A stretch of DNA of 64,000 nt from Elsinoe ampelina (GCA_010093995.1 ML992501.1:640227-704226); one strand, 5' to 3'; positions 3,001 to 25,599 are shown, counted from the stretch's first letter. Notes: generated by a model from the letters alone, not told the origin. Program-made: numbers and translations.

Positions 3001-3284
3001 GCTTCGATTAAGTATATTACTAGTTAATAAGAAGTAGATATAGGTGTAGCTATAGAGGGGAAGAGAGAGGTAGAGGTAGAAGAGTAGCGATATAGGTAGC
3101 AATTTAGTGCAAGTGTTACTTACGATAGATAAGCCTTAGATCTTAGTTTACTTACGAGAGAGGCATACTAGAATTGTACTTAGTTATAATTAGTTAGCCT
3201 AAACTAACACTTATAGAACTATAAAGTTTAACGTGCTAAACTTTATCTCCTCTTAGTTTTGTCGTATACTTATTACGTAGCGAC

Positions 3285-4075
3285 ATAACTATATTATAAA
3301 TACGATTTGTAATAACGCCTTAGTTCGCGCTCTTCGCTTATACCGACCTAAACGTAGGCGTTAGCGTCCCTAGTGTAACCTTTTCTCTCCTCTCTATCCG
3401 ACCTTAATAATAGCTAGCTATCTATTATAGCGGATTTCTGCGCCTAGTATACTATAATTATTAATTGTTATATATACTATAGCGACTCTAATATTTACTC
3501 TCGCCTCGTCGTTGCTACTACTTCTAATAGTATCCTCTATACTAGCTACGTCGTGTTTGTAGAATTAACTACTACTAGTACCTAGTAGTTACGCCGGAGT
3601 AAATCTATTATAGTATACCTCTCTATCTTGCCTACTACGCCGCTGTAGGCTTAAGAGTGCATAAGGAGACTCCGACACCTCTTTCCCTCTCTCTACTACT
3701 ACTACCCTCTATAGCTTCCTTTATACTAGCTACGTATTATTAGTAGAATTAGCTACCGTCTCTACCTAGTAGCTACGACTAAGCGAATCTATCGCGGAGT
3801 ATCTCCTAATCTTATAGATAGCGCTACTAAGGGTTCTAGTATATGCAAAGAGAGTAGAGAAGCTAGTATTTACTAGAGATTACCTACCTTATAGTATAAG
3901 AATATTAAGGGGAGAATTATAGAGAAATAACTAGTATAACAAAGAGGAAGAGATAGAGGCATATTGTAGGCAAAGATACGTCTACTACCTCCTACTAGAT
4001 AGTAGCTTACTATAGAGAGTATTATAGGCAAAGCTATATTAGTAGTATTCTCTTTTATAATTGCTTTTATAGTAG
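3285..4075 (-). repeat. Repeat R1 copy A (~790 bp; probable RIP-inactivated minus-strand ORF with an internal ~185-bp duplication)
   Basis: Colinear with 10866-11655 at a near-constant offset of ~7,580 (atacgattt at 3300/10881; ttgc at 4061/11641); differences are mostly transitions. Coding strand is inferred. Confidence 0.9.
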
Positions 4076-4887
4076 GGTTTTATTATTAGTAGCGCTTTGT
4101 TATAACTTTCTCGCGTTAGTAATGTACTTCTTTCTATATAGATTATATACCTATTACTTTAATCCTTCTCCTCTAACTAGTAAATAAAATCTCCTTGTCT
4201 AATACGTATAAGTATACTATATATCTTTCTTTATTCCTTATTATTTATCTTGTCTCTTATCTACTATAAAGACATTAAGGTTGTTACTTTACACAATAAT
4301 ACTCTTTATTAAATAGTCCGCTAGCTGTTTAGAGCATATATAACTTCGTATATAGTACTAATATATAAGTGTTTAGCATAGTTAATTACTTCGATACTAA
4401 TTTTCTACAATAATTAGTACTTATAACATTCTCTAATAGCTGCGTTTTGTTTGCTTACTTAATTTACGCCCTATAATATTTGTTAGTAGTAAACTAACTT
4501 ATTCACTTTTAGTTCTAGCATCGACCTAATATTAGTAATTGTTACGTGTTACTATTAGCACGTATAAAACATAGACTTAGTTAACCTAGTTCACTTTTAG
4601 GTTAAGGCCCGAACTAGATCTTAGTTATAAGTATACTACTTACTTCGGTATACTATCTTAAATACAAATTTTATTATATTTAAGAAGTTACTACTTACTT
4701 TCCGCGTAGCATTTTAATATTATACTAAGTAGTAGGTATTTATAATTGCTACTATTTACTCTATAGCGCTTAACTTACTACGCTTAGTTCTTAGCTATAT
4801 AATCTTAACTCCTCTAACCTTACCTACCTTATACGACGCCTTTACTAGTAGATATTCTTATACTTATTAAATATATATAATAGTACT

Positions 4888-7800
4888 ATACTACCGAAGA
4901 TAAAGAAGCTAAAGGTCGCTACTAAACCTATAGAAAAGATTCTACTTAACAACCTTATGCTAGCTCTTGTTAAGAATATACTTTATAATAATAATGTTAG
5001 TAAGAAATCTATCTAATTCTTCTTTAATTAGAACAACTAGTAATACTCTACTACGTTCGTAAGGATAAAGGAAACAATCTTAAAAGTCTTTATAGAATCT
5101 AATATCAAAATTGAGAAATAAGATAGAAGCGAGTTATATAATTCTAAGGTGCTTAAAGCACACCTTAAAATTAAAACTAGGCTACTAAATAGCATACCTA
5201 ACGATTTCTAGCTCTTCGTCGACTAACTAGATTAGAAAGATCTAGACTAGTTCAAGGAGAACTTATAGACTATAGTTAATATCGATAAGATAAAAGCTAT
5301 ATAGCGATTATTCCGAAATACTATACAATTAATAAGAGTAAATCTCCCGTCGGTTAAAAGGGAAAGGACAACGTCGCTAGGCGAAGAAGGTACCTAGAGT
5401 CTATATCCTTTAGCTACCTTGTCTATATAGACACTAACGCTCTCCTAAGTAAGAACACTATCCTCGGAGAGACGTATAACTCGTGTAAAGACAGGCAATA
5501 AGAGATTAGATTTGTATATATAGCCTTATTATAGAATGTTTAGCTTTAACTAGGGGCTAGCGTCTAATCGTGTCTAGATCGATATCAAATTTGCTACGAT
5601 CTAGATTATAGAGGTTATTAAAGTAGATACTATCTCGTATCTAATATTAAGAAAAAACATCTACGTCTATAACTTAAGAAAGCCTAGTGCCGGCAAGGAC
5701 AAGAATTGTTACGTTAATTACTACATTAGTAAGCTTAGGTAGATCCTTAACATTAGAGATAATTACCTCTAACTCTACTAGCTTGACATATATAACTCTA
5801 TATAAGTCTTCGCTATTAAAGACTCTTTCGATCTAGACGCCGCTATTACTAAGCATATTACAACTCTTATCTCTAGTACCTACGAGATCTTTCTCTATCT
5901 TACTTCTTCTATAGCATCTATTAAAGATCTTCTCGACTTTATACGAAGTAAGTTTACCTCTTTCCTATTTATCTATATATACTAATACTTATAGATAACT
6001 CTTATTAATATTGTAGTAGCTAGTAACTACTTTCTATAGCTAAGGCTACTATAGAAGAGAACTTAGAAGTGTTTCTTACTCCTAAGAAGCTTCGCTTTAT
6101 AGACATTAACACTAATAAGAAGCGTAAAGGAGATTAGTAGAAAGAGAATATTATAATATAGAACGTTTAATACCCGTAATAGCGACTAAACTACTAAAGG
6201 CAAGAGCGGCGATACTACTATATTTTATTTGCTATTACATTATTTATAAAACTATTTAGTTCTTAACTAATAAAGTTTTATTTAGCTTATTCTGCCTCTA
6301 AGAGGCTATAGCCCCTATAAATCCTGCGATTTCCGTTATTGTTATTAGAAGCAAACTTACTCGATAGTCCTACGACTATAGCTAGACAGATTCTAACTGA
6401 CTTAGCAACTTAGTTCGGGGTGTAGTTTTACTTTATACAGTTTTAGAAGAATATAGCTCCTTCTCCCCTACTAGAAGAACATAGCCTATTTAGACTATAG
6501 TATATGCTACTAAGGCACTATCTATGTTCCTACTACTTTAATAGCTTAAAGAATATTATATAAGCTACTATATACCTAAGGCTAGCTATCTATCTAAATA
6601 AACGTAATCTCTCGGAGCTCTCTAATACCTCTCCTAAGTTCTACTTTGTTACTAGTGACTTTCTATAGCTCGCCTAGCACGCTATAACGTATTAGAGCGA
6701 AAAGAGCAAGTCTAAGAAGATAACGACTTACTTCTACTAACACGAGATTAATATTAGCATTAAAAAAGTAATATGTTCTTAATATTATTAATAATAGAAA
6801 CGAAGCGATGCTACTATAGATACAATAGACTAGGGCGTTTAATAATAAGCGAAACAAGTTAGTAGAATAAAATCTTGTCCCTTATTATAGTAGAAGTAAT
6901 AGTACAAGTTTTAGTTCTATACTAAACTTAGAGTTAACTAAATTAAATAAGAATAGTATAGTGCTATAAAGGAGCACGTAGGCGTTACTACTAATATAGT
7001 TATTAGGCTTTACTCTTGTATACTAGCGAGGTTTACACGTAGTATACTTAGAAGTTAATAAAGAATTCTTGCCGACTATTATTAGTTCTAGCTGCCACCT
7101 CCTAACAAATAGCAGAGACACTTTAGGTTAGGTTACACCTCCTAACTAAGTATAAACTTAAGTTAGTTTAGTTAGCCTAAAACTAGAAACAAACTTATTT
7201 TATATTAGAGTAGATAAGTCCTTTAAGGGAACACTATAACGCCTAGCTATCTTATGCCCCTTCTCGTTAGGCAATTACTACTTAGTATTAGTATAGCTCT
7301 ACCGACTATATACGTAGGTTTAGTATTAAGCTTAACATTTAATATAAGGTTAATTATACCGAGAGAAAGGAATTAGATACCTACTACTTAACGAAGGTAG
7401 CTTCGATATAGTAGAGCTAGTCTCTATCTATAGGCAGTAAAGACGTACCTATTACAAAGAATAAGAGAGAATAAACTAGACACGATTTAACTTAATATTA
7501 CTATGTAATATAATAAGAAGTAGCTCTCTACCTATACGAAGGTAACGTAAGAATAGTTAAAGCCTATTACGGCCCCCTTTTCGTAAATATAATAGTCACT
7601 TCTTATTTCTAGTTTAAAATCTTCGTATTAGTCCCTATATAGATAGCTAGACTTCTATTTATTCCTCTCGACATGTATCTTGACCTAATTATAAAATATC
7701 TAGTAGCTACGCCTACTTTTATATCTTATTAGGTTCGAGATATTCCTAACTAGGACTTTAAAGTTTTAATTAAGGATAGATATCTTATTTCTTTAGTAGC

Positions 7801-9300
7801 ACTATATATATAAATCGCTTCGTATATAGGGGAGTATACCTTAACTACAATTATAGAGACGCTATATAGGAGAGAGTAGCACGGGATAATATCTATATTT
7901 AACAAGTAAAAGGAATCTAGAGGTAATTATACTAGATGTTGTTACGAGCTTACTTTATTTACTCTACTACCCCGCTAGTATAGAAAGAGTAATAACATTA
8001 ACTAACATTATAGTAGGGGCTATAGACACTTCTTAGACTTTATACCCCGAGCCGAAGCGGTAGATAAGCATATAGCTAGCACTATACTAGATTAGGAATA
8101 TAAGGCCTTTATATTATTATCCTCGAGATTATAGAATAGAAAGCCCGTAGTTAGAAGACTAAGAGGTAGTAAGAGATTATTCGTACGTATAACTCTATAG
8201 CACTAGTAGTAGCTATAGTAGTTAGTTTAACTTAGTTAGTCTAGTTCGGTCGTTACTAATAAGAGAGCTATATCTATAATAACTTAAGAGAATTCCGAAT
8301 AGCTAAGCTATTAGGATTAGTAAGGGCACTAAAGTCGTTATTATTAATTATAGAGAGAAGTCTATAGTAAGCTACGTAGGCATTATTAAGGTAGCTATAT
8401 CGAAGTAAACTTACTTCGAGAAGGCTACGCTAGTTAGTTTATAACTAGGAATAGCATATAGTTCTATAACAAGTAAAGTACTAGTGCTTTCGCCTTAATA
8501 GTGTAACTTTGCTTAATACGAAGTTAGTATATAGATCTAATTATTATAGTAGGCTTCCGACAGTGCCTTAGAGAATATAACATTCGCTAGCGTAGATATA
8601 ATAATAGCGTTTATACTTAAGCTAACTATACTATCCTATCGGCCGAAGAAGTAGGTTAACTATAGCTACGATATACTAACAATAATATAGAAGGTTATAT
8701 AAGATAATATAGCGAAGTAAACGAACTAAAAGCGTACGTCACAAAAACACTTTTCGTAGGGAGTTAGGGAATTAGGTTTATTGCTTAGGATTGCGTTGGA
8801 AAATCCTAAAAGAGTTATATTACCTTACTATTTTTCGTACTATTTTCGCGTTTTTCGCGATTTTACGTGTCTATTTAGAGTAAATTTACTTTCCCTATAT
8901 ATTACCATAAACTAGAAAAAATTCTGCATTTTTTAATATATAGCTTGCTTACATAATACTACTCTAAATACTAGTAAATAAGGTTTTAAACTTTAAGTCT
9001 AATTCTAAAAATAATCTAGTTATATTACATAAGCAAATTATATATCAAAAAACGTAGAATTTTTTCTAGTTTATTATAATATATAATATATGCCAAGAAA
9101 CTCTAAATTGAAAGCAGGAAAGTAGAAAAACGTAGTTCTGATTCACTTCTAAGCACTTCTAAGCAAAAAAACCCCTAGGTCCATTTCCAACGCAATCTAA
9201 TGCAATCTAATGCAATTCCCCACGAAAAGTGTTTTCGTGACGTAGTTGTTTAAACTAATAGAGGAGTAATAGCAAATTATTAGTTTATCCTTGTTAAGAT
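4888..9300 (+). pseudogene. RIP-inactivated, diverged SNF2-like gene, module A (interrupted near its 3' end by a MITE)
   Basis: Patchy similarity to 12557-16550 throughout (5006~12668, 7767~15502, 8205-8260~15955-16015 including a shared GT..CTAAT..AG intron-like segment, 8682~16431). Catalytic motifs are not clearly recognisable in this copy. Confidence 0.6.
8737..9242. mobile_element. 506-bp non-autonomous TIR element (MITE / fold-back), TA target-site duplication
   Basis: TA|CGTCACAAAAACACTTTTCGTAGGGA ... TCCCCACGAAAAGTGTTTTCGTGACG|TA; extra inverted arms at ~8789-8802/9184-9197 and 8897-8958/9023-9084; absent at the homologous position of module B (~16,470). Confidence 0.88.
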
Positions 9301-9744
9301 TAGTTAAGGGAACACTTGTAATTTTCACCTAAAAAGTACTAGTTTTAGTTTAGCGAACTAATCGACTACCTCTAATAAATTAACTATAGGTATAAACGAC
9401 CTAACGTTATATAGCTAAGGTATCTTTGTATATTACTATTACTATTTTTTCGTAGAGGCTATTTATAACTAACTTATTATAATACTAGTAACAAGTTAAG
9501 ACACGAGATAGCAAGAGCTATAAATCGTTTACTAGCTAAAATTATTATACCTACGCGGCACTTCCTGTTTTACAATTGCTATAAAAGCCTCTACTAAGAA
9601 TAATAGCGCGACAATAGCTAATTAAGTATAGTATTTAATATTGTTCTTAAGTAAGAGACAGCCGACAAACTCTATTACCTAGATATATTAGAGTAAACTC
9701 TGTCTCGATATGTCTAGTACTATAGCGTAGATACAATTTTAGCT

Positions 9745-10252
9745 TTAGTCCGCTAATGCTATACGATAGCTTAGTCCTATTAGCTCTACTACGAATTACA
9801 GTAAATAAGAACTAAACTAAGCAACGAGGTAGAAACGATAGCCTATAGCTAGCGTAGAGTGTCCTTCTCCCTTTGCCTACTATATAGTATAGCATAGCGG
9901 ATAATCCTCTTAGTCTCTTTACTAACCTCGACCCTCGACCTCTAGTACGTAGAACGGATAGTAATAGTGACAATAGGCTTGATAGTAACGTGTACAAGAA
10001 AGAGAAAAGCATAGATAAGGTTATAATAGAAGGTACACACGAGGAAGAGTAAGTAATTATAGCAAGTATAACTAGTAGCACGTCTATAGAGCGGAGTGCT
10101 AGGAGGTTATCCTTATCTAGTAGAGCTATATCCGATTATACTACGTTCGAGATAGTAACTAGTATACTAGCTAGTAGCGAGGAGTTAGTAATAGATATAG
10201 TTTATTCTTAGTTTATATTAACTAATCTTATTTAGATCTCTCTAAGTCTATA
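9745..10252 (+). pseudogene. Repeat R2 copy A: truncated 5' exon of Plavaka transposase
   Basis: Closely similar (mostly transitions) to ~16998-17503; similarity stops just after the intron acceptor, whereas copy B continues into the transposase core. Confidence 0.8.
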
Positions 10253-10865
10253 ACACATTCTTCGCCCCGAGCGATTAATAAGATATAGCTTAGCTAGGGA
10301 CCCTTAGCTTAGCGCTCTAACGTTTAATAAAAGGCAAGCTACTAACTTAGATAGATAATTTTAATTCGAGTTAGGTCGTTATAGTAGAAGTGTCTTCTAG
10401 TAGAATATACTTACTACAGACTACTAGCCCCTATATAATGTTCTAATAAATCTACTTCTACCTACGTAAGGGTACTAAAGATACATCTAAGTTATATATA
10501 TAAAGGCTATAGTAGTCTAACTAATAGTAAAATAGTGTTTACTAGTAGAAAGCTTACTTAGCTTAAATTTAGTAGTGCAAATTGTTGCTTTACTCTATCT
10601 CTAGCATGTTATATATAGTAGTAGTAGAGGGCGGCTAGTAGGGGACGGCTAGTAGTTTATTATGTTAAACTAACAATTTCTTAGTCCTCTCTCTCGAAGT
10701 TTAAGAATAATCTAAAATTTCGACCTAACTAGATTAAGCACTCCTCAGAACTTAATTATATAATACTATCTAATTATGTTCTTCTCTAAAGTTAGGTATT
10801 ATATGTTTAGAGACTTATAATCTTTATAGTATTATAAACGCGTCGTAAACTCTGTTTATAGTAAT

Positions 10866-11655
10866 ATAACTACATCGTAGATACGATTTACTATAACGCC
10901 TTAGTTTACGCCCTCTACTTATACTAACCTAAACGTAGGTATTAGCGTCCCCGGTATAATCTTTTCTCTCCTCTCTATTTAACCTCGACAATAGCTAGCT
11001 ATCTATTATAGCGGATCCCTCGCCTAGTACACTATAATTATCTATTACTATATATACAATAGCGACTTTAATATTTACTCTTATATTACTATCGCTACTA
11101 CTTCTAATAGTATCCTCTATACCGGCTATGTCGTGTTTATAGAATTAACTACCGCTAGTACCTAGTAGTTACGCCGGAGTAAATCTATTATAGTATACCT
11201 CTCTATCTTGTCTACTACGCCGCTATAGGCTTAAGGGTGTATAAGGAGACTCTAATACCTCTTTCTCTCTCTCTACTACTACTGCCCTCTATAGCTTCCT
11301 TTACACTAGCTATGTATTATTAGTAGGACTAGCTACTGTCTCTACCTAGTAGCTACGACTAAGTAAATCTATCGCGGAGCATCTCCCGATCTTACGGACA
11401 GCGCTACTAGAGGTTCTAGCGTATATAAAGAGAGTAGAGAAGCTAGCGTCTACTAGAGATTACCTCCCTTATAGTATAAGGATGTTAAGGGGAGAATTAC
11501 GGAGGAATAACTAGTATAATAAAGAGAAAGAGACAGAGGAATATTATAGGCAAAGATACATCTACTATCTCCTACTAGATAGTAGCTTACTATAGAGAGC
11601 GTCGTAGGTGAAGCTATACTAGTAGCGTTCTCTCTTGCTATTGCCTTCCTAGTAG
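10866..11655 (-). repeat. Repeat R1 copy B
   Basis: Direct repeat of 3285-4075. Confidence 0.9.
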
Positions 11656-12556
11656 AGCTAGGCGAGGAATAAAGCGCATTTGTAATTATGTAGAATATAC
11701 TATTAACTGCCTATTCCGCGGAATATATAGCCTTTACTCTACCCTACTACTCGATTCTATATATAGCAATTATAAAGTCTAGATAATTAGATAGTAGTAT
11801 ATTACTTTCTTTATTCCTTTACTAGCATCTATAAGCTATACTATATGCTATATATACTATGCTCTTTATTCCGCTATAGACTACTAACTACCTTCTATTT
11901 GTGTTCTATTACTATTGTCCTTCGTATATAAATACTAGTTTCGCTATCAAAATATTGTTTAATTATTTTATATTAACTACTACTATATTCCCTCTATTTA
12001 TTAGACTATTATTCCTTAAGATCTACCCTAAATACGATAATAGTATCCTTAGTGCGTACGACATGTAAAATAAAAGGTAACTAAGTACACGGACTATAGT
12101 TACTCTTAGTTTAGTGTCTAAACTAAGTAATCTACTATTATATATACGCTATATCTAGTATACTACTACGTGCTTAGTTTAGGGCCTGACCTAAGTCGAC
12201 TAAATTTAAGTTACTTCTCTCCTTAATTACTTTAGTTTACCTTTATTTATACTCTCTTATATATAAATAAATAACTTATATAGCTCTCTAGTATTTCTTT
12301 AACCTCTTTAATCTCTCTTTTAAGCGCTTTTTACTTAAATATCTCCTCTTTAGTTAAGTCTTAGTTAGGTATATATTACGAAGTATATAGACCTACTACG
12401 TTAATAAATTCTCTCCTTAATTCTTCTAAACTTATAAATATATAATACCTTTATAGAATCTCTTCTTTAACATCTATTATACCTACTTAACCTATTTACT
12501 AGATATTATTCTAAGCTTTATTTATAGTATATACTAAGCTTATAGACGTATATAAT

Positions 12557-15500: not shown

Positions 15501-16550
15501 TATTAAGGATAAGTATCTTTATAGTCTTATAAATACATAGAAGAAGATTAAACAGGATATAGATAAGAGTATATAAGAGGTAATTAACAGGTAAAAGGAT
15601 AAATCTAATAAGCCTAAAGTAACATTAGAGATAATCCTTAACAAGAAGACTAAGGAGCAAATACTAAGCCTAGTTACGCCGCTACTACTTTTCTCTATAT
15701 TTCTCGCTCTTATAGATATATTCTAGAACAATCCCGCGGTTGTAGAAGAGTTTAGCGACTTTACTATTAAGTTTATTTACGAAATTATATATAACTCCTC
15801 GGAGATAGCGCTATAGTAGCATATAGACAAGATCTACGCTAGTCCTTAGATAAAGGTCCTTTATAGTGTTATTTCCGAGATTATTAAGTAGAACATCTCC
15901 TATTCGAAGGAGCTAAAGAGGCAAGTAATTGTCTATACATTTACACCGTTAGTGCTAGTAGTTGCTATAATAGTTAGTTTAGTCTATTTAGTCTATTTAG
16001 GTCATTACTAATAAGGGTATAGTATCTAAAATGGCTCGAGAAGCACCTAGACGGCAAAGCAATTAAGATTAATAAGGATGCTAATATAGTTATTGTCTAC
16101 TATAGAATAACATCTATACCTACCTATATAGACATCGTCGACATAGCTATGTCTAATAATACGTTTATCGAACCTAATAGGCTAGAAGGCTTAAGGATCT
16201 TAATTGCCTAGAGTAGAGCTATTAAGACTAGTCTTAATCTAAACCGCTTTAATACTATAATCTTGCTCGATATAGCGTTAGTATTATAATCTGTCCTTTA
16301 GTGTCTAGCTTAGGTCTATAGGAATATTAAGTCTTAGAAAGCTAACTACATAGAGGCATTTATAATAAAGCCGACAGCTCTATTCTATAGGCCTCTAGAA
16401 TAGCTTAATAGTAGATAGAGTAGGCTATCGATGATATAGAAGGTTATCTACGAGGAAATAGAGAAGTAGAGAGCAAAGATCTAGAAACTTTAACAAGCTA
16501 TAGCGAAGAAGAATATAATTGTTATAGATAATAATTAAGATTACTAGATA
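12557..16550 (+). pseudogene. RIP-inactivated SNF2-family (SF2) helicase/ATPase, module B, with a long N-terminal region or separate upstream ORF
   Basis: After reversing transitions, in one frame: motif I FMFAHEMGFGKT (14281-14316), Ia LIVGELNVIEQWAQEIQKF (14488-), II IIFDEFHQ (14917-14940), III MSGTP (15010-15024); downstream helicase-C-like TGLNLxxFxTxILLD...QCLAxVHR (~16228-16322). Confidence 0.85.
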
Positions 16551-16997
16551 ATAGTCTAACTATATTACCTAAAAATGCAATTCTTTAGTTTAGCAGACTA
16601 ATTTAGTTCCCTGTATATGTTAAACTATCTTTTAGATTACCTAATATAATATAGCATCTAAACGTTTTCTACTTTCTACTATTACTAAAATTTAGCCGGC
16701 TAACTCTAACTACGAATTTAGATCTTAAGCGATAAACACGGATATACTAAGGCAAATTAGTAAATACTTAGCCTACAGGAAGATTATATAATCTAGTAGA
16801 GGCCTTATCTAATATCTGCTATATTACTAGAGAAGAGAGCTACTAATAAGTAACATAGCGTAAGTCTTACTAGAGTAACATAGCAATAGACATCTATATA
16901 GAGACGACGCTAGTAACAATCCTCGCTTGTTTAATAAGGGAGAGTGCTTACTATCTAATAAAGGCTAACGAGGTAGTATTACTAGTAATATACAATA

Positions 16998-19900
16998 TAG
17001 TTCGCTAACGCTAAATAACTTACTAGTCTACTTTACTCCGCTACGAATAATAGTAACTAAGAATCGAACTAAACACTAGAGTAGAAACAAAAGTCTATAG
17101 CCGGCAGAGAGTGTCCTTCCCCCTTTGCCTACTATATAGTATAGTATAGTAGACAATTCTCTTAGTCTCTTTGTCGACCTTAACCCTCGACCTCTAGCAC
17201 GTAGAACGGATAGTAATAGTAATAGTAGGCTCGATAGCAACGTACACGAGGAAGAGGAGAGCATAGACGAGGTTATAATAGAAGGCATATATAAGAAAGA
17301 GTAAGTAATTACAGCAAGTATAACTAGTAGCACGTCTATAGAGCGGAGTGCTAGGAGGTTATCCTTATCTAGTAGAGCTATATCCGATCGTACTACGTTC
17401 GAGATAGCTACTAGTATACTAGCTAGCAGCGAAGAGTTAGTTATAGACATAGTTTATTCTTAGTTTACGTCGACTAATCTTGTCTAGATCTCTCTAAGTC
17501 TATGATATATACACCGACACTAACGATAAACTAAATTACAATTAGTTAGGCGAGACTTAACTAAAGGAAGCCTTTATTAGCGGCATAGACATAGGTCTTG
17601 CCTAGTAGCTTATAAAGGAGAAACTTAGTAGAGCCGCAATTATATAATTGCTTAAAGACCTACGTATATAACCTCTAGTAGAGAGCCTTAGTTAGCGAAC
17701 TACGAATAAACTAATAGAGAAGATAGAGAATTTAGATACGGGCGAGAGTATTAACGGCTAGTAGACCTTAAGCTTTATACTAAACACTAATTGTAGGCCT
17801 AAAAGACACACGTTCTAGCATCTAGATATTCTTATAGCGATACACTTCTTACTTAGCTATTACAGTTTCGTAGTAGATATAGACTATAGCCTATATAGAG
17901 TCTTTATAGAAGCTGTCGAGAGTAAGCCGCTACGACAAGTATATACTAAAATAGTAAGTAGCGACTAGTAGTAGAACATATAAAAGCGACTTAGGATACT
18001 AGGGGCTACTATTATTCTATTAATCGTCGCGAGTAATTAGACCTAGGTAATAAACTATTAAGGAGATCTTGTAGTATATACTGTCTATCTATTATTAGGT
18101 AACCTAAAGGTAGAAGTACGTAATAGTAACTACCGGCTAGGGTAGTTACTAATTAGCTTACTTTCTATTATTAAAGATAGTAGTAATGTCGTTAAGGAAA
18201 AGACCTACTACACTTACATAAAGAAAATCTTTAACGCTGTTATTAATTACTACTTAAGAGAGAGCGAAACAATCTCCTATACGGATAGAAAGAGGTAGAG
18301 GTACTTCCCTATACTCGCTGCTATACCTACGGATTACACCGAATAGGTTACTATAACCGGTGTAAAGTTACTATATTATTATATAAGTTGCCTAATCGGT
18401 AAGGACGAAAGAGAGGACCTAGTAGTTACTATACTATTCCGAACTTACTACTCTACGTAGCGATAATAGCGCTTATAGAGAGAAGTACATAAGAGTTAGT
18501 AGTAGAGTAAGAAGATAGATATAAGCTCTTAAGTTTATATAGTTAGTTACTTTACGTAGGATCTTCTATATACTAATATTTACTACGCGATAGTACTAGA
18601 TATTCTATACTAACTTCTTAAAGGCGTTTTAATATACGTCTTATACTAGACTCGAAAATTGCTCTAGGATTTAATACCTATATAGAGATTACGACAGTAT
18701 ATAAAGGCTAGAGAGACTATATAGCGAATAGGCTACTAGCGCTTAGTAAAGGAGATTATACTTAATATTATTAATAAGCGTTTCGATAGTATACTAGTGT
18801 TTCCTAGCATCTAACACTTCTCGTACTACTTAGCTATTAAGCAATAGACAGGTTAAGAGTAGAAGAGTATTATACGCTAGATGCTCCTAGTATTTATACT
18901 ACTACTTGAGAAGGTTAAGGCGCCTTAAGCTATTAAGTTTATACGCGTACTAGTCGACTTTATATTACTAGTAAACTATAAGACCTACAACGATAATATA
19001 CTCTAGTATATTAACCTTGCGCTCTTTAGAATAAACAAGTATAAAGAAACCTTCTAGGCCTATCGTAGTAATAGAAAAGAAGAGAGCAACTTTAACTTTC
19101 CGAAATAGCACTTAATAATATATTTTTTAAAGGCTATCTATGATTTTAGAGTAGTTACTAGCCTTGATTCTAATTATTTAGAGCACAATTATGTACGCTT
19201 TATTAAGGACGCCTTTAAACTTATAAATAAGAAGGCTAGATAGGAAGACTAGGTTACTACTTATAACACTAAACTAGCAAATATATTAGTAGTATTTAAT
19301 AACCCCTCGAAGTTAGTTAGGCTATCGGCTACTAAACTAATTAAGATCTAGAGTACGCTAGTTAGCGTAAGTAATATAGTAAATGTCACTTCTTAGTTCG
19401 GCTAGCCTAGCGCTAAGAGGGGAGCTATATAGCGTATAGTAAGAGAACTAGAGGCGCTTATTAATATACTACCTAGGCTATTACTATAGCAAGTAATAGC
19501 AGTGTTTGTCTACGAGGCTCGTTAAGGTATAGCTAATATAGGCTCTAACTTAAGAACTAAATACCCTAATTAGTTTAATGCTAAACTAGATCCTAATAGA
19601 CTTAAACTAGATTCTTCTCGGGTAAGTAACCTCTACGTTAAGTTCTACTATTCTTTAAAGTATAAGAAACTATTCGACTATAATCCTAATAATCCTAATA
19701 CGGACGAATAAGACTTTATCTAGTACATAACTAAATAGTAAGGGATACGTAGTAATAAGAGGCAAGACTAGCTCTAGGTATAAGAATAGACAACGAATAA
19801 TAAAGGCACTAACGGAGCATTACCTAATAGCCTATAAGGTAAGTTACTAGCTTATATTATATTTATAATAACTATAGAGAATAGCTTCTAGTCTAGCAGA

Positions 19901-20281
19901 TCGGGCCGGCGTTAACGCCTATACTATATAGAAGCGCTAGTAGATCTATATTAGCCTACTCGGCTAGATAGAGTAGCTAATCGAGAGTATAGCATAACAC
20001 TAATTAAGCCTTAGACAAATCGACGCGCGTAAGCTAGACAGAACACTCTTACTAGTAGGCGTGTCTACTCTACCTTATAAATCTACTATAGTATCTATGT
20101 CGTGCTAGTAGATAAAATAAAGCTATACGGCCGGATATATATTAATAACATAGCCGACTTTAACACATATAACATACTATAGAATAAGTTATAGAAGTCT
20201 AAATAGCTCTACCTAGCTAAGGCTTCGAAACGAGAGAGGTTAAGATCTCTAGGCGTAGTTAGCAAGCGTAGTAGGCATTAA
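16998..20281 (+). pseudogene. RIP-inactivated Plavaka transposase
   Basis: De-RIPed single frame: VYTEMVSGDWWW (17939-17974), GATIIPLIVASDQT, VYLSLGNL, CADG...FPILAAxxADYTEQ, DILHQLLKG (18599-18625), QWTGQEQK, FNFPKWH (19091-), SEHNH; preceded by an acidic exon and a probable intron at ~17436-17487. True start codon not determined. Confidence 0.9.
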
Positions 20282-20559
20282 CGAAGCTAGAGTACTCCTT
20301 TCGTAGCTAGAATAATTATCTCTTACGTTAATAGCCTAACGCTTAGGTACACTTAGGTTAACTACTAGACTATATTAGGTAGGCAGGTTATAATAACTTT
20401 TGTAGGTATTACTCTAACTAGTTAGTTTACACCTATATGTTATTAGGTTAGTCCCTAAACTATATAGGGTTTATAGCCTAAGGTGCCTTATATAGTTTTT
20501 ACGCTAAAGAGTTAGTCTATTCCTTTACTAATTATAATAGCTTAGGAAATTATAGCGAG

Positions 20560-20920
20560 GCGTTATAGAAGTTAGTCTTTAAGATACTTAAGACATACTT
20601 TAAGTATTTAGCAACAGTAGTAAAAGGCTTAGGTTAGTAAGTTATCTTTAGGTTAGTTTTACTAACGGAGTTAGCGGTCTAAGAGGAAAGTTTATTCTCT
20701 ATAATAAGTTTACTAATAAGACTCCGATATAGACGATAGTACTTTACTCTATTTGCTATTATATCGTAGGGATCTACTCAATACTACTAGAGCAGTTACT
20801 AAGGACTTATTCCTTTCTATCTAACGGACAAGATCTATAATAACACTAGCTTAGAAGACCCGCTAGAGAATATTCTTATTAATCTTTATATATATACTAT
20901 ACGCAGGAAACGAGTTAAGG
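20560..20920 (+). pseudogene. RIP-inactivated BTB/POZ-like gene fragment 1
   Basis: De-RIPed DKIYDNTGxEDPLENILIDLYIY (20827-) resembles the IYxxTxxxSPLRRxLxDxY tail of fungal BTB proteins; boundaries approximate. Confidence 0.45.
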
Positions 20921-22139
20921 AAGAAGCTACTCTTTAGTATAGCGAGTAGCCTCTTCTTTGTCCTCTAAAGCCTCCTCTGTATCTATATAGGTTATAAGTA
21001 TTTCCTTATAAGATTATTAGTGTATAATATATATACGACAAATCCTGTCTATAAGATTGCATACTAGATTATCCTATACGCGCTATTACTACAACTACTA
21101 CTTAGTAGTAGTAATAGTAGAGCGGCGGGATATAGTAGGAAAAAGTGTTATTATATTTACCTCCGAGAGGGGAATACTCTCTTTCTCCTCTATATCTTTC
21201 TCTTTGCTCTCTACTATAGTAAGGTATACTATAACCGAAGCTACTACTACTACTTCCTCTATAACTACTATTACTCGTATATAGCTATAACTATAGATTA
21301 TTACTAGAAGCTTAGTACGCGTTAGAGTAACCTTATCTTTAACATATAGTAATAAAGTGCCGCGATCTTAACCCGGACACTACCTCTATTACCTCTCCGA
21401 CAACTGCTATAACTAGCGCCGAGAGCTAGTAAGGCAAGAAGCGTACTACCCCTACCTTCGCTAGTGTCTATAGCTATACTAGTATTAAGCTCGGCAAGGT
21501 AGAGGAGAAGAGTAAGAAGTAGAAGAAGCCTCTTATTATTACTAATTACCTCCTTACTAATAACCTTATAGATAGGTAGTCGGGGTAGATCTTAAACTTC
21601 CTAGAAAGAGTATTTACTTCTCCGCTATAACTGCCTTTAAGCTGTCGTTTAGACTACTATGTCCTTAGTACTATCTCCGGGGCTACTTAGACACTATACT
21701 AATGTCCGTTAGACCTTACTTTTCTAGGTAGTCTTTCGTAGCTCTAGAATTATCCTTCTAGTAGATATACTATTCCGTGTTAGTAGACGAGGGATTAGCT
21801 TAGCCTAAACTAAATGTCTATTACATTTCCCACACCTGTCCGTGTTAGTGTTAATCTTCTTAGAATAGGCTATAGCCTCGCTACTATAGCTACTATTAAC
21901 GTAGTATATCTAGCTTCTATTATTATTCTCTTCCTATATTACTAACGACTTCTAAGTACTAGAACAGGTCTATAGGTATTTATACTTAATGTCGTAACTA
22001 TACTTAGCTATAATAATTAAGTCCTTCTTAGGAAAAGCTTTCTTATATCTATAAGCCTAAGTTATAAATGCCTCTCTATAAGCTTATTTTATATTATTAA
22101 TAATATAGGCCGCTAGATAGTAGAACTTGTAGGCTATAG

Positions 22140-22495
22140 AGTAATAGAGGCGCTTTTTGTTAGTGTTAACCTTTGTCGCTAGCTATATAGTTACGCGAAA
22201 GTACTTATCTTTAGAGACATCTAATACCTTAATAGACAACTAAGTAGAGACGATAAAATAGAGTTAGAATAAGTATATATTAGTTTAGGGTTTTATGTTG
22301 TAAGCTAGAGAATAAGGTGTATAATGTCTACTTTCCTATTATAGTAAAAGCGCTTCTATACTAAGCTTTAATAATGTAGAGTATATACTTTCTCTCTATC
22401 TAGCGGACAAGATCTATAATAATACTAGCTTAGAGAGCTCTCTCCGGAAGATACTTATTAATTTCTATATCTATTCTAGTCGTAGCAAGTAGAGC
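22140..22495 (+). pseudogene. RIP-inactivated BTB/POZ-like gene fragment 2
   Basis: 40-bp match (2 mismatches) between 22395-22434 and 20816-20855; reads DKIYDNTGSESSLRKILIDFYIY; boundaries approximate. Confidence 0.5.
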
Positions 22496-22515
22496 GTTTA
22501 TCTAATCTAAGGCAC

Positions 22516-22587
22516 GTACGGTGCGTTTAACTAAAATTAGGTAGGTATAGTGCGTTTAACTAAATTTAGATAGGTACGGTGCGTTTA
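22516..22587 (+). repeat. 29-bp tandem repeat, ~2.5 copies (GTACGGTGCGTTTAACTAAAATTAGGTAG)
   Basis: Units begin at 22516, 22545 and 22574. Confidence 0.85.
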
Positions 22588-23963
22588 TAGCGACCTAACG
22601 TAGTTAAACTTAGTTTAATACGGAGAAACCTAATATTCTAACTCCCTACGCTTAGGACTTTCGTAACGTAGCCTCTTCTATAGCTTTAACCTTATAAGTC
22701 TCTACTACTAGTAAAGGTTATAAAGTTTATAAAGGCTATAAGAATTAAGTAGCTCCTCTATCTTAGTCTCTTTCTTAGCTACGAGTGTCTTAAGTATACT
22801 CTCTTCTACCTCCTCTTCTTCTATAAACCGGCTCTTAGCTAGTAGCTAGTAACGCTAGTAGAGTTACTTATTACTAGTACTAGTATTAGAAGGCTTATAT
22901 AAACTAGATAAAGGTCTCTAGTAAGAGACTTACTACTAGAGGCTATAATAGTTAAGGAGGGAGAGAGAGTTAAGAAGTTAGCTAAGGAGGTACTTAAGGA
23001 GGTACTTAAGGAGGTAGTATAATTAGATAATAAGGTAATCTATAAGAGCTTAGAGGTTAATCTATCTTAAAGGCCTTAAAGAGTAATAGATAGAGGTATA
23101 CTATACTACTAAGCTTAAGGTTAAGCACCTTGTCTATTTATACTAATATAGCAATTTAGACAAGCAAAACTTAACTAAAGTACTCTCTTAGTTAACTAAT
23201 AGAGTGCTTTAGTTAGCTAATTTATCTATTATAGTTTACACTAAAAGCTTGTTAAATTAGTCTATCTCTACTAAGATCGACAAACTGAAAGGCGGTGAGG
23301 AGCCAGCTAAAACGGCCTAATATTGTGGATGACTGAACCAGCTAAAGCCCTTTTTTTTTTTTAGTGAGGAGGGTCTGGATGCACAGCCTCACGATTGCTC
23401 GAGCGGAATCTGTGGCGTTAGGCACCAGCCACATCTGCCAACTTTGTGTCTCCGTCGCAAGTGACACTCGAAAGAAGACTGGCAAACATGACGACGTCGT
23501 CTCTGCGTAATTTCTCCTGCTGCTCGAACTGATACTCTTCATGTTTGAAAGCAGCGTACTCATACCTACGACACTGAAGAATCACCCTCGTTGATGATCC
23601 AGCAGAACTCTACGCATGTCCATCACATCGTTGCCGCCCGAAACAACAGTCTCGGCCATTCAGACCATGCCATGTCACTTGACCGCTGCTTAGCCACTCT
23701 TCTGGACTCTGATTCGTCTGGGCGACCTCCCACCGCGACAACCCATCAAAAGGCCGCTCGCCTTTCTTTCAACATTCTGTCTCTTTATCCCCTGTGATCA
23801 GGAAGAAAGACGACTTGAACGTTACACAAAGCACCGGCGTTCTGATTTCTTTGTTGGTCACGACACTCCTGTGGCATAATTGGCGCCTGCAAACTTGACC
23901 TACAATCTACCATATTTGAAATTTCGATCTAGGCAAATATCATCACATACTATTCATAACATC

Positions 23964-25358: not shown

Positions 25359-25599
25359 TAGATACCATATCATGCACATACGTAGTAATGAGAAATGACC
25401 GAACCCTCATGCAACCTCCCGAACCCAGATCGTCATGATCGACCAAAAGTTGGAGAAATTGGAGATCCCTCTGCCGTTCAACCACTCTATCAACCACCCT
25501 CGACCCTCATCCCTCGCCCATCCCTCGATCTCCTATCTCCTCCCTCATCCCTATCTACCCACCATCCTACCGTCAACCACCCAATCACCCTCAGCAATC

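What the first reader, a model, noticed from the sequence alone, without database searches (positions are those of the whole stretch)
3285..22600. Relic of a candidate large Plavaka transposon carrying a SNF2 helicase and BTB cargo
Seen: after reversing transitions, the block yields a SNF2 ATPase with ordered motifs directly upstream of, and co-oriented with, a Plavaka transposase, plus a divergent unknown ORF (R1) upstream and two BTB-like relics downstream. The order R1 - SNF2 - Plavaka 5' exon occurs twice. Known: Plavaka transposases are fungal DDE-type enzymes often found in clusters with chromatin-related genes, and RIP targets repeated DNA. Inference: the SNF2 gene is a fixed component of a multi-gene mobile element, possibly remodelling chromatin for transposition or anti-silencing. 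I do not know of a described Plavaka+SNF2 element. Termini and TSD were not identified.
Basis: partly seen in the sequence, partly recalled or inferred. Interest (0 to 1): 0.85.

Follow-up and report, generated by a model that had tools for sequence, protein, structure and literature searches.

The report
Dead Plavaka transposon carrying SNF2-like gene
A mutation-riddled fungal jumping gene of the Plavaka kind sits here next to the wreck of its own SNF2-like motor-protein gene, and the same gene pair is found intact in the yeast-like fungus Aureobasidium, so the two genes most likely travel together as one mobile element.

Summary
Window 1 to about 23,400 is a RIP-mutated, AT-rich block. A Plavaka transposase relic is certain: 17,522-20,251 (+), one frame, 71 stops; Pfam E=4e-25 and phmmer E=7e-98 on the raw translation. 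The SNF2 claim fails every standard scan of the raw translation. A RIP-aware codon-likelihood alignment, tuned on the transposase, recovers an SNF2-like ATPase core at 14,098-16,556 (+), about 1 kb upstream and co-oriented. It scores 104.7 bits against a general SNF2 profile (shuffles 46±4, 0 of 80 reach it) and 247 bits against a three-member family profile (shuffles 70±10). That family comes from Aureobasidium pullulans. There the SNF2-like gene and a Plavaka transposase carry consecutive locus tags on contigs of matching length in two assemblies, and form one fused gene model in two more. The roughly 7-kb unit (R1, SNF2 region, 520-bp block) is duplicated at DNA level, but copy 1 matches no SNF2 profile. 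The two downstream repeats are real; their BTB identity is unsupported. No termini or TSD were found. A relic at 2,715-3,011 (-) matches a small ORF divergently upstream of the SNF2 gene in an intact metagenome copy. Function is inferred, not shown.

The parts
1..23400 (.). RIP-mutated AT-rich block that holds all parts below
   Evidence: GC 0.27-0.37. RIP indices TA/AT 1.7-2.2 and (CA+TG)/(AC+GT) 0.18-0.61. GC and TpA excess return to normal between 23,201 and 23,600.
2715..3011 (-). Relic of a small unknown ORF ('ORF-X'), divergent from and about 1.4-1.5 kb upstream of the inferred SNF2 start of copy 1
   Evidence: RIP-aware alignment to L195 ORF 6198-6758(-), residues 34-132: 52.7 bits against a shuffle maximum of 21.5 (6 shuffles). 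In L195 that ORF starts 1,420 bp upstream of the intact SNF2 ORF. It has no Pfam family. The Atlas search gave only 'hypothetical protein' clusters scoring under 0.9.
3225..10270 (+). Repeat unit, copy 1 (left edge fuzzy, 3,132-3,225): R1 region, degenerate SNF2-homologous middle, conserved 520-bp block
   Evidence: Self-alignments. The ends are 76-85% identical to copy 2; the middle is about 55-60% identical with many gaps.
3241..4365 (.). R1 region, copy 1: the best-conserved part of the repeat, with no recognisable coding content
   Evidence: 85.7% identical over 791 nt to 10,866-11,655. tblastn matches in all three + frames. The Pfam scan was run only on the copy-2 counterpart (10,701-12,500) and gave 0 families.
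5719..8717 (+). Copy-1 counterpart of the SNF2 region, recognisable only through copy 2
   Evidence: tblastn 5,719-6,060 to 13,361-13,711 (E 1.5e-9) and 8,106-8,717 to 15,858-16,466 (E 4e-21). SNF2 profiles score at null level: 44.7; 89.4 against 78.8±6.4; targeted tests p 0.31 and 0.69.
8836..9145 (.). Imperfect palindrome inside copy 1, within extra DNA that copy 2 lacks
   Evidence: Inverted repeat arms 8,870-8,963 and 9,018-9,111, 77% complementary. Reverse-strand self-matches. Copy-1-only gaps lie at 8,699-9,337.
10271..10804 (.). Spacer between the two repeat units, with no match to anything tested
   Evidence: Alignment scores to 20,200-23,700 and to 1-3,300, on both strands, are 32-38 against a shuffle mean of 36.8 and maximum of 48.
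10805..17520 (+). Repeat unit, copy 2: R1 region (10,822-11,987), SNF2-like gene, conserved 520-bp block (16,987-17,550)
14098..16556 (+). Relic of a divergent SNF2-like ATPase core. The frame changes between 15,972 and 16,032. There are 59 in-frame stops in 781 codons.
   Evidence: General SNF2 profile chain score 104.7 bits against shuffles 46.2±4.4, maximum 61.8 (0 of 80). P0151 alone gives 84.5 bits. The family profile gives 137.8 local and 246.8 chain bits against nulls of 25.3±2.1 and 69.7±9.7. Two non-SNF2 helicase controls score at null level.
14290..14316 (+). Motif I (Walker A). It now reads VYKIRFRKT; the aligned relative reads AHDMGLGKT. Seven of the nine positions are identical or explained by C-to-T or G-to-A; of the other two, K/D is not explained by RIP.
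   Evidence: Alignment and reading frame. The RIP compatibility is my reading of the codons.
14488..14622 (+). Motif Ia block, the best single SNF2 signal
   Evidence: 32-35 bits with two different SNF2 profiles. 0 of 120 and 0 of 60+60 shuffles reach it; Gumbel p about 0.0015.
14926..15027 (+). Motif II (NKFY, aligned to DEFH of the relatives) and motif III (ISRTLF, aligned to ISGTPF)
   Evidence: DEFH and SGTPF are invariant in the six-sequence family alignment.
16191..16322 (+). Motifs V-VI of the C-terminal helicase lobe
   Evidence: 33.0 bits against a shuffle maximum of 29.7 (0 of 60). A 43.6-bit block in the family chain.
17522..20251 (+). Plavaka transposase relic: a single frame with 71 stops in 910 codons
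   Evidence: Pfam PF18759 E=4e-25. phmmer best E=7e-98. 754 bits against a 10-homologue profile, positions 165-1047 of 1057. 272 aligned positions are identical to the consensus and 204 more are reachable by reversing RIP, out of 867. Stop count.
20306..20914 (.).
   Evidence: Aligns to 21,958-22,493 with score 158 against a shuffle maximum of 102 (15 shuffles). The core 20,810-20,909 is 78-80% identical. No Pfam family.
21958..22493 (.). Downstream diverged direct repeat, copy b

Best explanation
This is a RIP-killed copy of a composite DNA transposon of the Plavaka lineage (a DDE transposase related to CACTA/EnSpm). Besides its transposase it carries, about 1 kb upstream on the same strand, a gene for a highly divergent SNF2-like ATPase. 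It probably also carries a small divergently transcribed ORF about 1.4 kb upstream of that gene. In this window the part upstream of the transposase (a 1.2-kb non-coding-looking region, the SNF2 gene and a 520-bp block) is present twice in tandem. The first copy is the more decayed.

Shown: the transposase relic; the SNF2-like relic with its order and strand; the duplication; the RIP signature; and the recurrence of the same SNF2-family/Plavaka gene pair in four A. pullulans assemblies.

Inferred: the two genes are mobilised together as one element, because a transposase gene has no fixed chromosomal home, so a conserved neighbour at 30-45% protein identity is best explained by co-mobility. 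Also inferred: the ATPase helps the element, most likely by remodelling or opening chromatin at the element or target, or by countering silencing. Other Plavaka and related elements carry TET/JBP, SET or methylase cargo. Here nothing works any more: both genes are riddled with stops.
For: Transposase. SNF2-like relic: general SNF2 profiles; family profiles; controls: two non-SNF2 E. coli SF2 helicase ORFs score 50.1 against 50.0±6.7 and 48.6 against 56.3±5.1; general SNF2 104.7 against 39.1±3.1; family 239.4 against 54.8±5.8.

The RIP model was tuned on the transposase only. It raises that score from 611 bits with no RIP to 750-776 bits.

Linkage elsewhere. A 'longer' search with Plavaka protein P0003 returned 1 protein among 4,960 candidates: P0151, 1,972 aa, with Pfam Plavaka plus SNF2-rel_dom (domains rechecked). 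D6D04_10663 (SNF2-like) and D6D04_10664 (Plavaka) are each reported on a contig of 10,591 bp. D6D19_10185 and D6D19_10186 are each reported on a contig of 9,626 bp. Fused models are D6D27_05451 and D6D29_06941. blastp shows the fused models are the SNF2-like protein (aa 1-1390) followed by the transposase (from aa 1434).

Intact single-exon SNF2 ORF of 1,465 aa in L195. ORF-X synteny. SNF2 affinity of the intact relatives: Pfam SNF2-rel_dom at 30-37 bits, over the cut-off, in 7 of the 8 family members that were scanned (P0153 scores 23.7, under the cut-off). 13 of 14 weak PDB profile hits are SNF2 remodellers.
Against: No terminal inverted repeats, Plavaka-type termini or TSD were found. Inverted-repeat scores were 54-60 against a shuffle mean of 52 and maximum of 73, so the element's limits are not defined and co-mobility is not demonstrated.

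None of 47 other Plavaka homologues scanned (47 of the 150 listed) carries an SNF2, Helicase_C or BTB domain. The SNF2 link is therefore confined to one sub-lineage.

In the one intact DNA copy I could read (L195), the SNF2 ORF is followed not by a transposase but, 965 bp later, by the start of a second SNF2-like paralogue 32% identical to the first, and then by the contig end. Adjacency in A. pullulans is inferred from consecutive locus tags, equal contig lengths and fused gene models; the DNA was not seen.

Intact relatives match only positions 1-88 of 290 of Pfam SNF2-rel_dom, and Helicase_C only below its cut-off. 'SNF2-like' is safer than 'SNF2'. Copy number in this genome is unknown because no genome is held. 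Function is entirely inferred.
Confidence: 0.75

Rival explanations
1. A host gene pair rather than a transposon: a domesticated Plavaka-derived gene and an SNF2-like partner form a conserved cellular locus. In this genome the locus was duplicated and then destroyed by RIP.
For: The intact SNF2 ORF in L195 lies beside ordinary host genes (MFS transporter, Piwi-domain gene). Each protein cluster is recorded on one contig only. No termini were found.
Against: RIP hits repeated DNA (established knowledge), and the whole 23-kb block is mutated. The A. pullulans genes lie on short contigs of 9.6-18 kb, and the L195 contig ends 1.5 kb after the SNF2 ORF, as assemblies do at repeats. The transposase relic keeps the D, C(2)C, H(3)H and E layout in RIP-compatible form (read against passages of PMC12730594). 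The nearest transposase relatives are scattered, fragmentary gene models.
Confidence: 0.1
2. Chance neighbours in a transposon graveyard: the SNF2-like unit is a separate repeat, or a decayed gene, that merely lies next to an unrelated Plavaka insertion.
For: The repeat unit ends at about 17,520, exactly where the transposase homology begins. The unit therefore behaves as a separable module. Copy 1 has no transposase after it. In L195 the SNF2 ORF is not followed by a transposase.
Against: The same order and strand (SNF2-like, then Plavaka) recur in four A. pullulans assemblies, with proteins only about 30-45% identical to the window's relics or to each other. That is very unlikely for independent neighbours.
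Confidence: 0.07
3. The SNF2-like signal is an artefact of permissive 'de-RIP' reading of AT-rich DNA.
For: Standard tools see nothing in the raw translation. Copy 1 scores at null level. A bacterial-only profile gave only p of about 0.0015 local and 1 of 100 shuffles for the chain score.
Against: The log-odds model has a RIP-matched null. The general profile scores 104.7 bits against 46±4 (0 of 80), while the minus strand scores 46.2 and non-SNF2 helicases are at null level. An independent family profile gives 138-247 bits. Family-specific motif variants (DEFH, SGTPF) appear in RIP-compatible form at the right spacing.
Confidence: 0.02

Closest known systems
Plavaka DNA transposons (CMCT clade: CACTA/EnSpm-Mirage-Chapaev-Transib and relatives), including TET/JBP-carrying Plavaka of Agaricomycetes (PMC12730594, passages read)
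   Same: The transposase is homologous to Pfam PF18759. A single long transposase ORF sits beside an accessory gene with a chromatin- or DNA-related activity.
   Different: The accessory gene is an SNF2-like ATPase, not a TET/JBP dioxygenase. That paper contains the word SNF2 0 times. The published termini (TGT..ACA, or CATCA..TGATG with 2-3 bp TSD) were not found here. The host is a RIP-competent ascomycete; the nearest relatives are from Aureobasidium and Polychaeton.
Giant Plavaka elements of the red alga Bostrychia with accessory genes PAG1-3 (bioRxiv 10.1101/2025.02.11.637652, passages read)
   Same: A multi-gene Plavaka element whose cargo is predicted to act on DNA or chromatin (N6-adenine methylase plus SET; ParB-like plus 2OG oxygenase), and thought to help the element.
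   Different: The cargo differs. The single mention of SNF2 in that paper concerns host gene families, not the element. The kingdom differs too.
[quoted passage not shown] (passage read)
   Same: A eukaryotic DNA transposon said to encode an SNF2 helicase beside its transposase.
   Different: I could find no description of these elements. A whole-word search for Enton, Inton and transposon found only that one relevant paper among 5. Their superfamily and any relation to Plavaka are unknown to me.
Cellular SNF2 remodellers (CHD1L/ALC1, Rad54, ISWI, DDM1, INO80)
   Same: The family profile's only PDB matches are to these: 13 of 14 hits. Helicase motifs I to VI are in order.
   Different: The matches are very weak (E 0.003-1). 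Pfam SNF2-rel_dom is matched only over its first 88 of 290 positions, and Helicase_C falls below its cut-off. There is a long insertion between the two lobes and about 640 residues of unknown N-terminus. An AlphaFold2 model was unusable at pLDDT 34.

Membership tests
Plavaka transposon | Transposase homologous to the Plavaka family (Pfam PF18759) | tested here: met
   E=4e-25 and 89.2 bits on the raw translation. 754 bits under the RIP-aware model against 10 homologues.
Plavaka transposon | [quoted passage not shown] | tested here: met
   In the alignment the order is DY.E ... CtlC ... HaltH ... fEakH. The window reads DYTE ... YISC ... HLIIY ... LEHN. The changed C-to-Y and H-to-Y are RIP-type. 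Which residues are catalytic is my reading, not a tool result.
Plavaka transposon | Termini 5'-TGT..ACA-3' or 5'-CATCA..TGATG-3' with 2-3 bp TSD | tested here: inconclusive
   No inverted repeat above chance between the left ends of the repeat units and 20,200-23,700 (scores 54-60 against a shuffle maximum of 73). RIP and the lack of other copies or an empty site prevent a real test.
SNF2 family ATPase | Helicase motifs I, Ia, II, III, IV, V, VI in order on one strand | tested here: met
   The chain alignment covers profile positions 3-453 of 456 across 14,004-16,511. Motifs were read. This holds for copy 2 only.
SNF2 family ATPase | Match to Pfam SNF2-rel_dom (PF00176) over its cut-off | tested here: inconclusive
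   The relic's raw translation gives no hit at E<=10. Intact relatives score 30-37 bits (cut-off 24.9) in 7 of the 8 scanned, but only over profile positions 1-88/91 of 290. P0153 scores 23.7, under the cut-off.
SNF2 family ATPase | Helicase_C (PF00271) C-terminal lobe | tested here: inconclusive
   Intact relatives score 16.6-18.5 bits, below the 23.5 cut-off, in 3 of the 8 scanned. The relic matches motifs V-VI of an SNF2 profile at 33 bits.
SNF2 family ATPase | Closer to SNF2 than to other SF2 helicases | tested here: met
   Two non-SNF2 E. coli SF2 helicase ORFs score at null level, while SNF2 profiles score far above it. By map position the two ORFs are probably RecG and Mfd; those names are recalled, not checked. 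13 of 14 PDB hits are SNF2 remodellers.
BTB/POZ domain | Match to Pfam BTB (PF00651) or a BTB profile | tested here: not met
   0 families at E<=1 in six stop-as-X frames of 20,401-23,700. A RIP-aware test was not possible: no BTB reference was found (0 of 3 viral records searched, 2 of the 5 loci not held).

The most novel reading that the evidence does not exclude
A sub-lineage of Plavaka transposons in Dothideomycete-type ascomycetes carries its own highly divergent SNF2-like motor as a standing part of the element, together with a small divergent ORF. The motor would open or re-set chromatin at the element, helping excision and integration or opposing heterochromatin-based silencing. This would be the first characterised chromatin-remodeller-type accessory gene of a fungal DNA transposon. 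Intact, testable copies exist in Aureobasidium pullulans.
Probability: 0.3. Interest if true: 0.8.

Novelty: new variant of a known kind. Interest (0 to 1): 0.6.

Why it matters
Accessory genes of DNA transposons are rare. The known ones (TET/JBP, SET, methylases, VANC-type anti-silencers) all point to elements manipulating the host's epigenetic defences. A transposon-borne SNF2-like ATPase would add ATP-driven chromatin or DNA translocation to that toolkit. It could be tested directly, because intact copies of both genes exist in a culturable yeast-like fungus.

There is also a method point. A codon-likelihood model of RIP, tuned on one gene, recovered a gene that Pfam, phmmer and PDB searches could not see. 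That may be useful for other RIP-mutated regions.

The copy in this window is a dead relic and has no function of its own.

Tried and rejected
1. Raw stop-as-X translations against Pfam gave nothing for the SNF2 regions, the downstream region and R1. Against PDB they also gave nothing.
2. The word-index protein search with the RIP-mutated transposase translation found nothing: 0 of 7,999 candidates. The index-free phmmer search then worked.
3. Stop-density mapping of frames was uninformative.
4. Nucleotide alignment of the two copies in the middle is unreliable: 340 blocks and 730 transversions in 6,407 columns.
5. A bacterial-only SNF2 profile gave only marginal support: local p about 0.0015, and 1 of 100 shuffles reached the chain score. 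It was replaced by a broader profile (10 bacterial plus 61 viral sequences) and then by the family profile.
6. An earlier reading of motif III at 15,322-15,438 was dropped. The spacing and the family alignment place it at 15,010-15,027.
7. Terminal inverted repeats, and spacer homology to the right-hand region: nothing above chance.
8. Further Plavaka-like segments elsewhere in the block, including the end of copy 1: none above null.
9. DNA-level comparison of the window with L195 was uninformative even for the SNF2 core.
10. Other L195 ORFs (Piwi-gene pieces, ORFs upstream and downstream of SNF2) against the window gave no clear hits apart from ORF-X. Two C/T-rich upstream frames gave borderline scores that I put down to composition.
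11. The AlphaFold2 model of the SNF2-like core had pLDDT 34, so no fold search was run.
12. The Atlas search for ORF-X returned only unnamed clusters scoring under 0.9.
13. Earlier notes of this scan: nothing.
14. Iyer et al. 2014 (PNAS), which named Plavaka, is not held. I could not check whether it mentions SNF2 neighbours.

Full report
**Setting.** The first 23.4 kb of the window is AT-rich (GC 0.27-0.37). It carries a strong RIP signature: TA/AT is 1.7-2.2 and (CA+TG)/(AC+GT) is 0.18-0.61, against 0.4-0.8 and 1.1-1.5 in the rest of the window. The change back to normal composition falls between 23,201 and 23,600. To the right lie ordinary genes: a 492-aa ORF with no Pfam family, then an alpha/beta hydrolase. 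No whole genome is held for this window, so copy number and other copies could not be examined.

**Transposase.** Read with stops as X, the + frame of 16,901 matches Pfam Plavaka (PF18759) at E=4e-25 over 17,705-18,631. An index-free phmmer search of 17,600-20,050 against 1.84 billion representatives found 760 proteins at E<=1e-3. The best were P0001 (7e-98), P0002 and P0003. I scanned 47 of the 150 listed hits with Pfam. 45 carry Plavaka, none carries SNF2, Helicase_C or BTB, one has Peptidase_C48 and two have DUF6830.

**RIP-aware method.** I built a profile from 10 Plavaka homologues and scored the window with a codon log-odds model. In this model an ancestral C may read T and an ancestral G may read A. 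The rate is high in the CpA/TpG context and low elsewhere, and the null passes through the same mutation model.
- The transposase scores 611 bits with no RIP term and 750-776 bits with rates of 0.6-0.8 and 0.05-0.1.
- The alignment runs 17,522-20,251 in one frame with no frameshift.
- 272 positions are identical to the consensus and 204 more are reachable by reversing RIP, out of 867 aligned positions.
- The frame holds 71 stops in 910 codons.
- The D ... C(2)C ... H(3)H ... E layout described for the clade (PMC12730594, passages read) is present in RIP-compatible form (my reading).
This gene served as the positive control. It fixed the parameters (0.7 and 0.08) before they were applied to anything else.

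**SNF2: standard searches fail.** Pfam at E<=1 or 10 found nothing in three frames of 12,501-17,600, nor in the two regions I had eyeballed. phmmer against PDB found nothing at E<=10. The claim therefore rests on reading through RIP, which can create motifs at will, so a null model was needed.

**SNF2: general profiles.** I obtained SNF2 references that owe nothing to the window.
- 30 bacterial loci carry full PF00176 matches (reached through). A profile of these gave one local hit, the motif Ia block at 14,488-14,577. It scored 32-34 bits, 0 of 120 dinucleotide shuffles reached it, and Gumbel p is about 0.0015. The chain score was reached by 1 of 100 shuffles. That is marginal.
- I then added 61 of 80 viral SNF2 loci to 10 bacterial sequences. 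The broader profile gave two hits above all 60 shuffles (maximum 29.7): motif Ia at 14,488-14,622 (34.9 bits) and motifs V-VI at 16,191-16,322 (33.0 bits).
- With cheap long gaps, one collinear alignment covers profile positions 3-453 of 456 across 14,004-16,511 on the + strand. It scores 104.7 bits against shuffles of 46.2±4.4 with a maximum of 61.8 (0 of 80; Gumbel p about 5e-8). The minus strand scores 46.2 and copy 1 scores 44.7.
- Controls on 13,001-17,000: two non-SNF2 E. coli SF2 helicase ORFs score at null level (50.1 against 50.0±6.7; 48.6 against 56.3±5.1). E. coli RapA alone is borderline (62.7 against 51.3±6.8).

**Linkage elsewhere.** A search for longer relatives of Plavaka protein P0003 returned one protein among 4,960 candidates. 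It is P0151, 1,972 aa, named 'hypothetical protein D6D27_05451 [Aureobasidium pullulans]', with precomputed Pfam Plavaka and SNF2-rel_dom. My own scan places SNF2-rel_dom at 663-777, a weak ResIII match at 887-961, and Plavaka from 1629.

Searching with its residues 600-1560 found three proteins among 7,935 candidates: P0151 itself, P0152 (95% identical) and P0153 (45% identical, a JGI record).

The cluster look-up gave the following.
- P0152 is D6D04_10663 and Plavaka protein P0004 is D6D04_10664. Each is reported on a contig of 10,591 bp.
- D6D19_10185 (SNF2-like) and D6D19_10186 (Plavaka) are each reported on a contig of 9,626 bp.
- D6D29_06941 is a second fused model, 2,292 aa.
P0004 is the fourth-best hit of the window's transposase (E=1e-69). 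blastp shows the fused models consist of the SNF2-like protein (aa 1-1390, 88-92% identical to P0152, P0161 and P0162) followed by the transposase from aa 1434 (86-98% identical to P0004 and P0157). The order and strand match the window. The adjacency is inferred from locus tags, contig lengths and fused models; I could not read that DNA.

**The relic belongs to that family.**
- P0151 alone aligns to 14,098-16,364 over its residues 621-1390 at 84.5 bits, against a shuffle maximum of about 30.
- A three-member family profile gives 137.8 bits locally, against 25.3±2.1 with a maximum of 29.5 in 15 shuffles. The chain score is 246.8 bits, against 69.7±9.7 with a maximum of 101.3 in 20 shuffles.
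- Family-specific motif variants reappear in RIP-compatible form at the right spacing. AHDMGLGKT reads VYKIRFRKT at 14,290-14,316. DEFH reads NKFY at 14,926-14,937. ISGTPF reads ISRTLF at 15,010-15,027. DEFH and SGTPF are invariant in the six-sequence family alignment.
- The frame changes between 15,972 and 16,032. There are 59 stops in 781 codons.
- The family's roughly 640-residue N-terminus is not detectable in the window.

**How 'SNF2' is the family?** The family is divergent.
- Intact members match Pfam SNF2-rel_dom at 24-37 bits and only over positions 1-88/91 of 290. ResIII and DEAD matches are weak, and Helicase_C scores 16.6-18.5 bits, below its cut-off.
- A family profile against PDB gives 14 weak hits (E 0.003-1), of which 13 are SNF2 remodellers: CHD1L, Rad54, ISWI, SMARCA5, an archaeal Snf2/Rad54 helicase, DDM1 and INO80.
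- An AlphaFold2 model from six sequences was unusable at pLDDT 34.
'SNF2-like' is the safe name.

**The duplication.** Clear homology runs from about 3,225 (weakly from 3,132) to about 10,270, and from about 10,805 to about 17,520. The ends are well kept: 85.7% identity over 791 nt and 84.3% over 510 nt. The middle is about 55-60% identical with many gaps and transversions. It is tied together by translated matches at 5,719-6,060 to 13,361-13,711 (E 1.5e-9) and 8,106-8,717 to 15,858-16,466 (E 4e-21).

Copy 1 holds extra DNA with an imperfect palindrome at 8,836-9,145. It matches no SNF2 profile, even in targeted tests.

The right edge of the repeat coincides with the start of the transposase homology at 17,522. 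The 534-bp spacer at 10,271-10,804 matches nothing tested.

**An intact copy.** One metagenome locus, L195, is the end of a 76.6-kb contig. It holds an uninterrupted 1,465-aa SNF2-like ORF at 8,180-12,577, which is P0162. Its GC is about 0.5 with no RIP. Upstream lie MFS transporter and Piwi-domain genes.

The 186-aa ORF at 6,198-6,758 (-) starts 1,420 bp upstream of the SNF2 ORF. It has a RIP-mutated homologue in the window at 2,715-3,011 (-), scoring 52.7 bits against a shuffle maximum of 21.5. The Piwi-gene pieces have none. By my arithmetic the spacing to the inferred SNF2 start of copy 1 is about 1.5 kb, so this divergent arrangement is shared.

Downstream of the SNF2 ORF, L195 keeps about 70 residues shared with the fused A. 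pullulans models. It then carries, at 13,542-13,868, the start of a second SNF2-like paralogue 32% identical to the first. No transposase follows before the contig ends. This runs against a simple invariant 'SNF2 then transposase' order. It also echoes the tandem SNF2 units of the window; I cannot explain it.

**Downstream region and BTB.** 20,306-20,914 and 21,958-22,493 are diverged direct repeats, with alignment score 158 against a shuffle maximum of 102. Their core of about 100 bp is 78-80% identical. No Pfam family, BTB included, is found at E<=1. I could obtain no BTB reference for a RIP-aware test. Since SNF2 was also invisible to Pfam, this absence is weak evidence. The BTB reading is simply unsupported.

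**Ends.** No inverted repeat above chance links the left ends of the repeat units to the right-hand region. The published Plavaka termini could not be recognised.

**Literature.**
- A full-text search for 'Plavaka' found 20 papers.
- PMC12730594 contains SNF2 0 times (passages read).
- The Bostrychia preprint mentions SNF2 once, in another context.
- A search for SNF2, EnSpm, transposase and fungi together found only that preprint.
- PMC3627910 states in one sentence that SNF2 helicases occur in 'Inton and Enton' transposons. Nothing more on these could be found.
- PMC10799480 lists SNF2_N among host-TE fusion domains in fungi but does not mention Plavaka or CACTA (passages read).
- Iyer et al. 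2014 is not held.
Within what I could search, an SNF2-carrying Plavaka element is not described.

**Verdict.** This is a dead, RIP-mutated Plavaka element with a partly duplicated 5' half. Its SNF2-like accessory gene is real and belongs to a small, divergent family that is linked to Plavaka transposases in Aureobasidium. Co-mobility is the best explanation (about 0.75) but is not proven, because no ends are defined. A role in chromatin opening, transposition help or anti-silencing is inference by analogy with other Plavaka cargo (about 0.4).

Noticed in passing
L195:13395-14060 (+), especially 13542-13868: Only 965 bp downstream of the intact SNF2-like ORF, where A. pullulans gene models continue into the transposase, this contig instead carries the start of a second SNF2-like paralogue, 32% identical to residues 584-699 of the first. 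The contig then ends. This echoes the tandem SNF2 units of the window.
   Followed up: partly
window 2715-3011 (-) and L195:6198-6758 (-): A small ORF of unknown family lies divergently about 1.4 kb upstream of the SNF2-like gene in both places (52.7 bits against a shuffle maximum of 21.5). It may be a third gene of the element, or the first exon of the neighbouring Piwi-domain gene in L195.
   Followed up: partly
window 8836-9145: An imperfect palindrome (arms of 94 nt, 77% complementary, 54 nt apart) lies inside about 250-350 bp of DNA that copy 1 has and copy 2 lacks. It could be a small insertion or a foldback.
   Followed up: no
window 4001-5000 and 12001-13000; L195:7001-8000: The stretch just upstream of the SNF2-like coding region is pyrimidine-rich on the + strand in all three places (GC skew -0.17 to -0.33, negative AT skew). 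This gives borderline, probably compositional, cross-matches.
   Followed up: partly
window 1-2700: This is also RIP-mutated AT-rich DNA with no match to any profile used here (Plavaka, SNF2, L195 ORFs). It is probably another decayed repeat.
   Followed up: partly
P0126 (1656 aa): One Plavaka homologue carries a Ulp1-type Peptidase_C48 domain upstream of the transposase domain. Two others carry DUF6830 downstream. These are other accessory modules in the family.
   Followed up: no
window 23880-25358 (+): The first non-RIP ORF to the right of the block (492 aa) has no Pfam family. The next ORF (25399-26523) is an alpha/beta hydrolase.
   Followed up: partly
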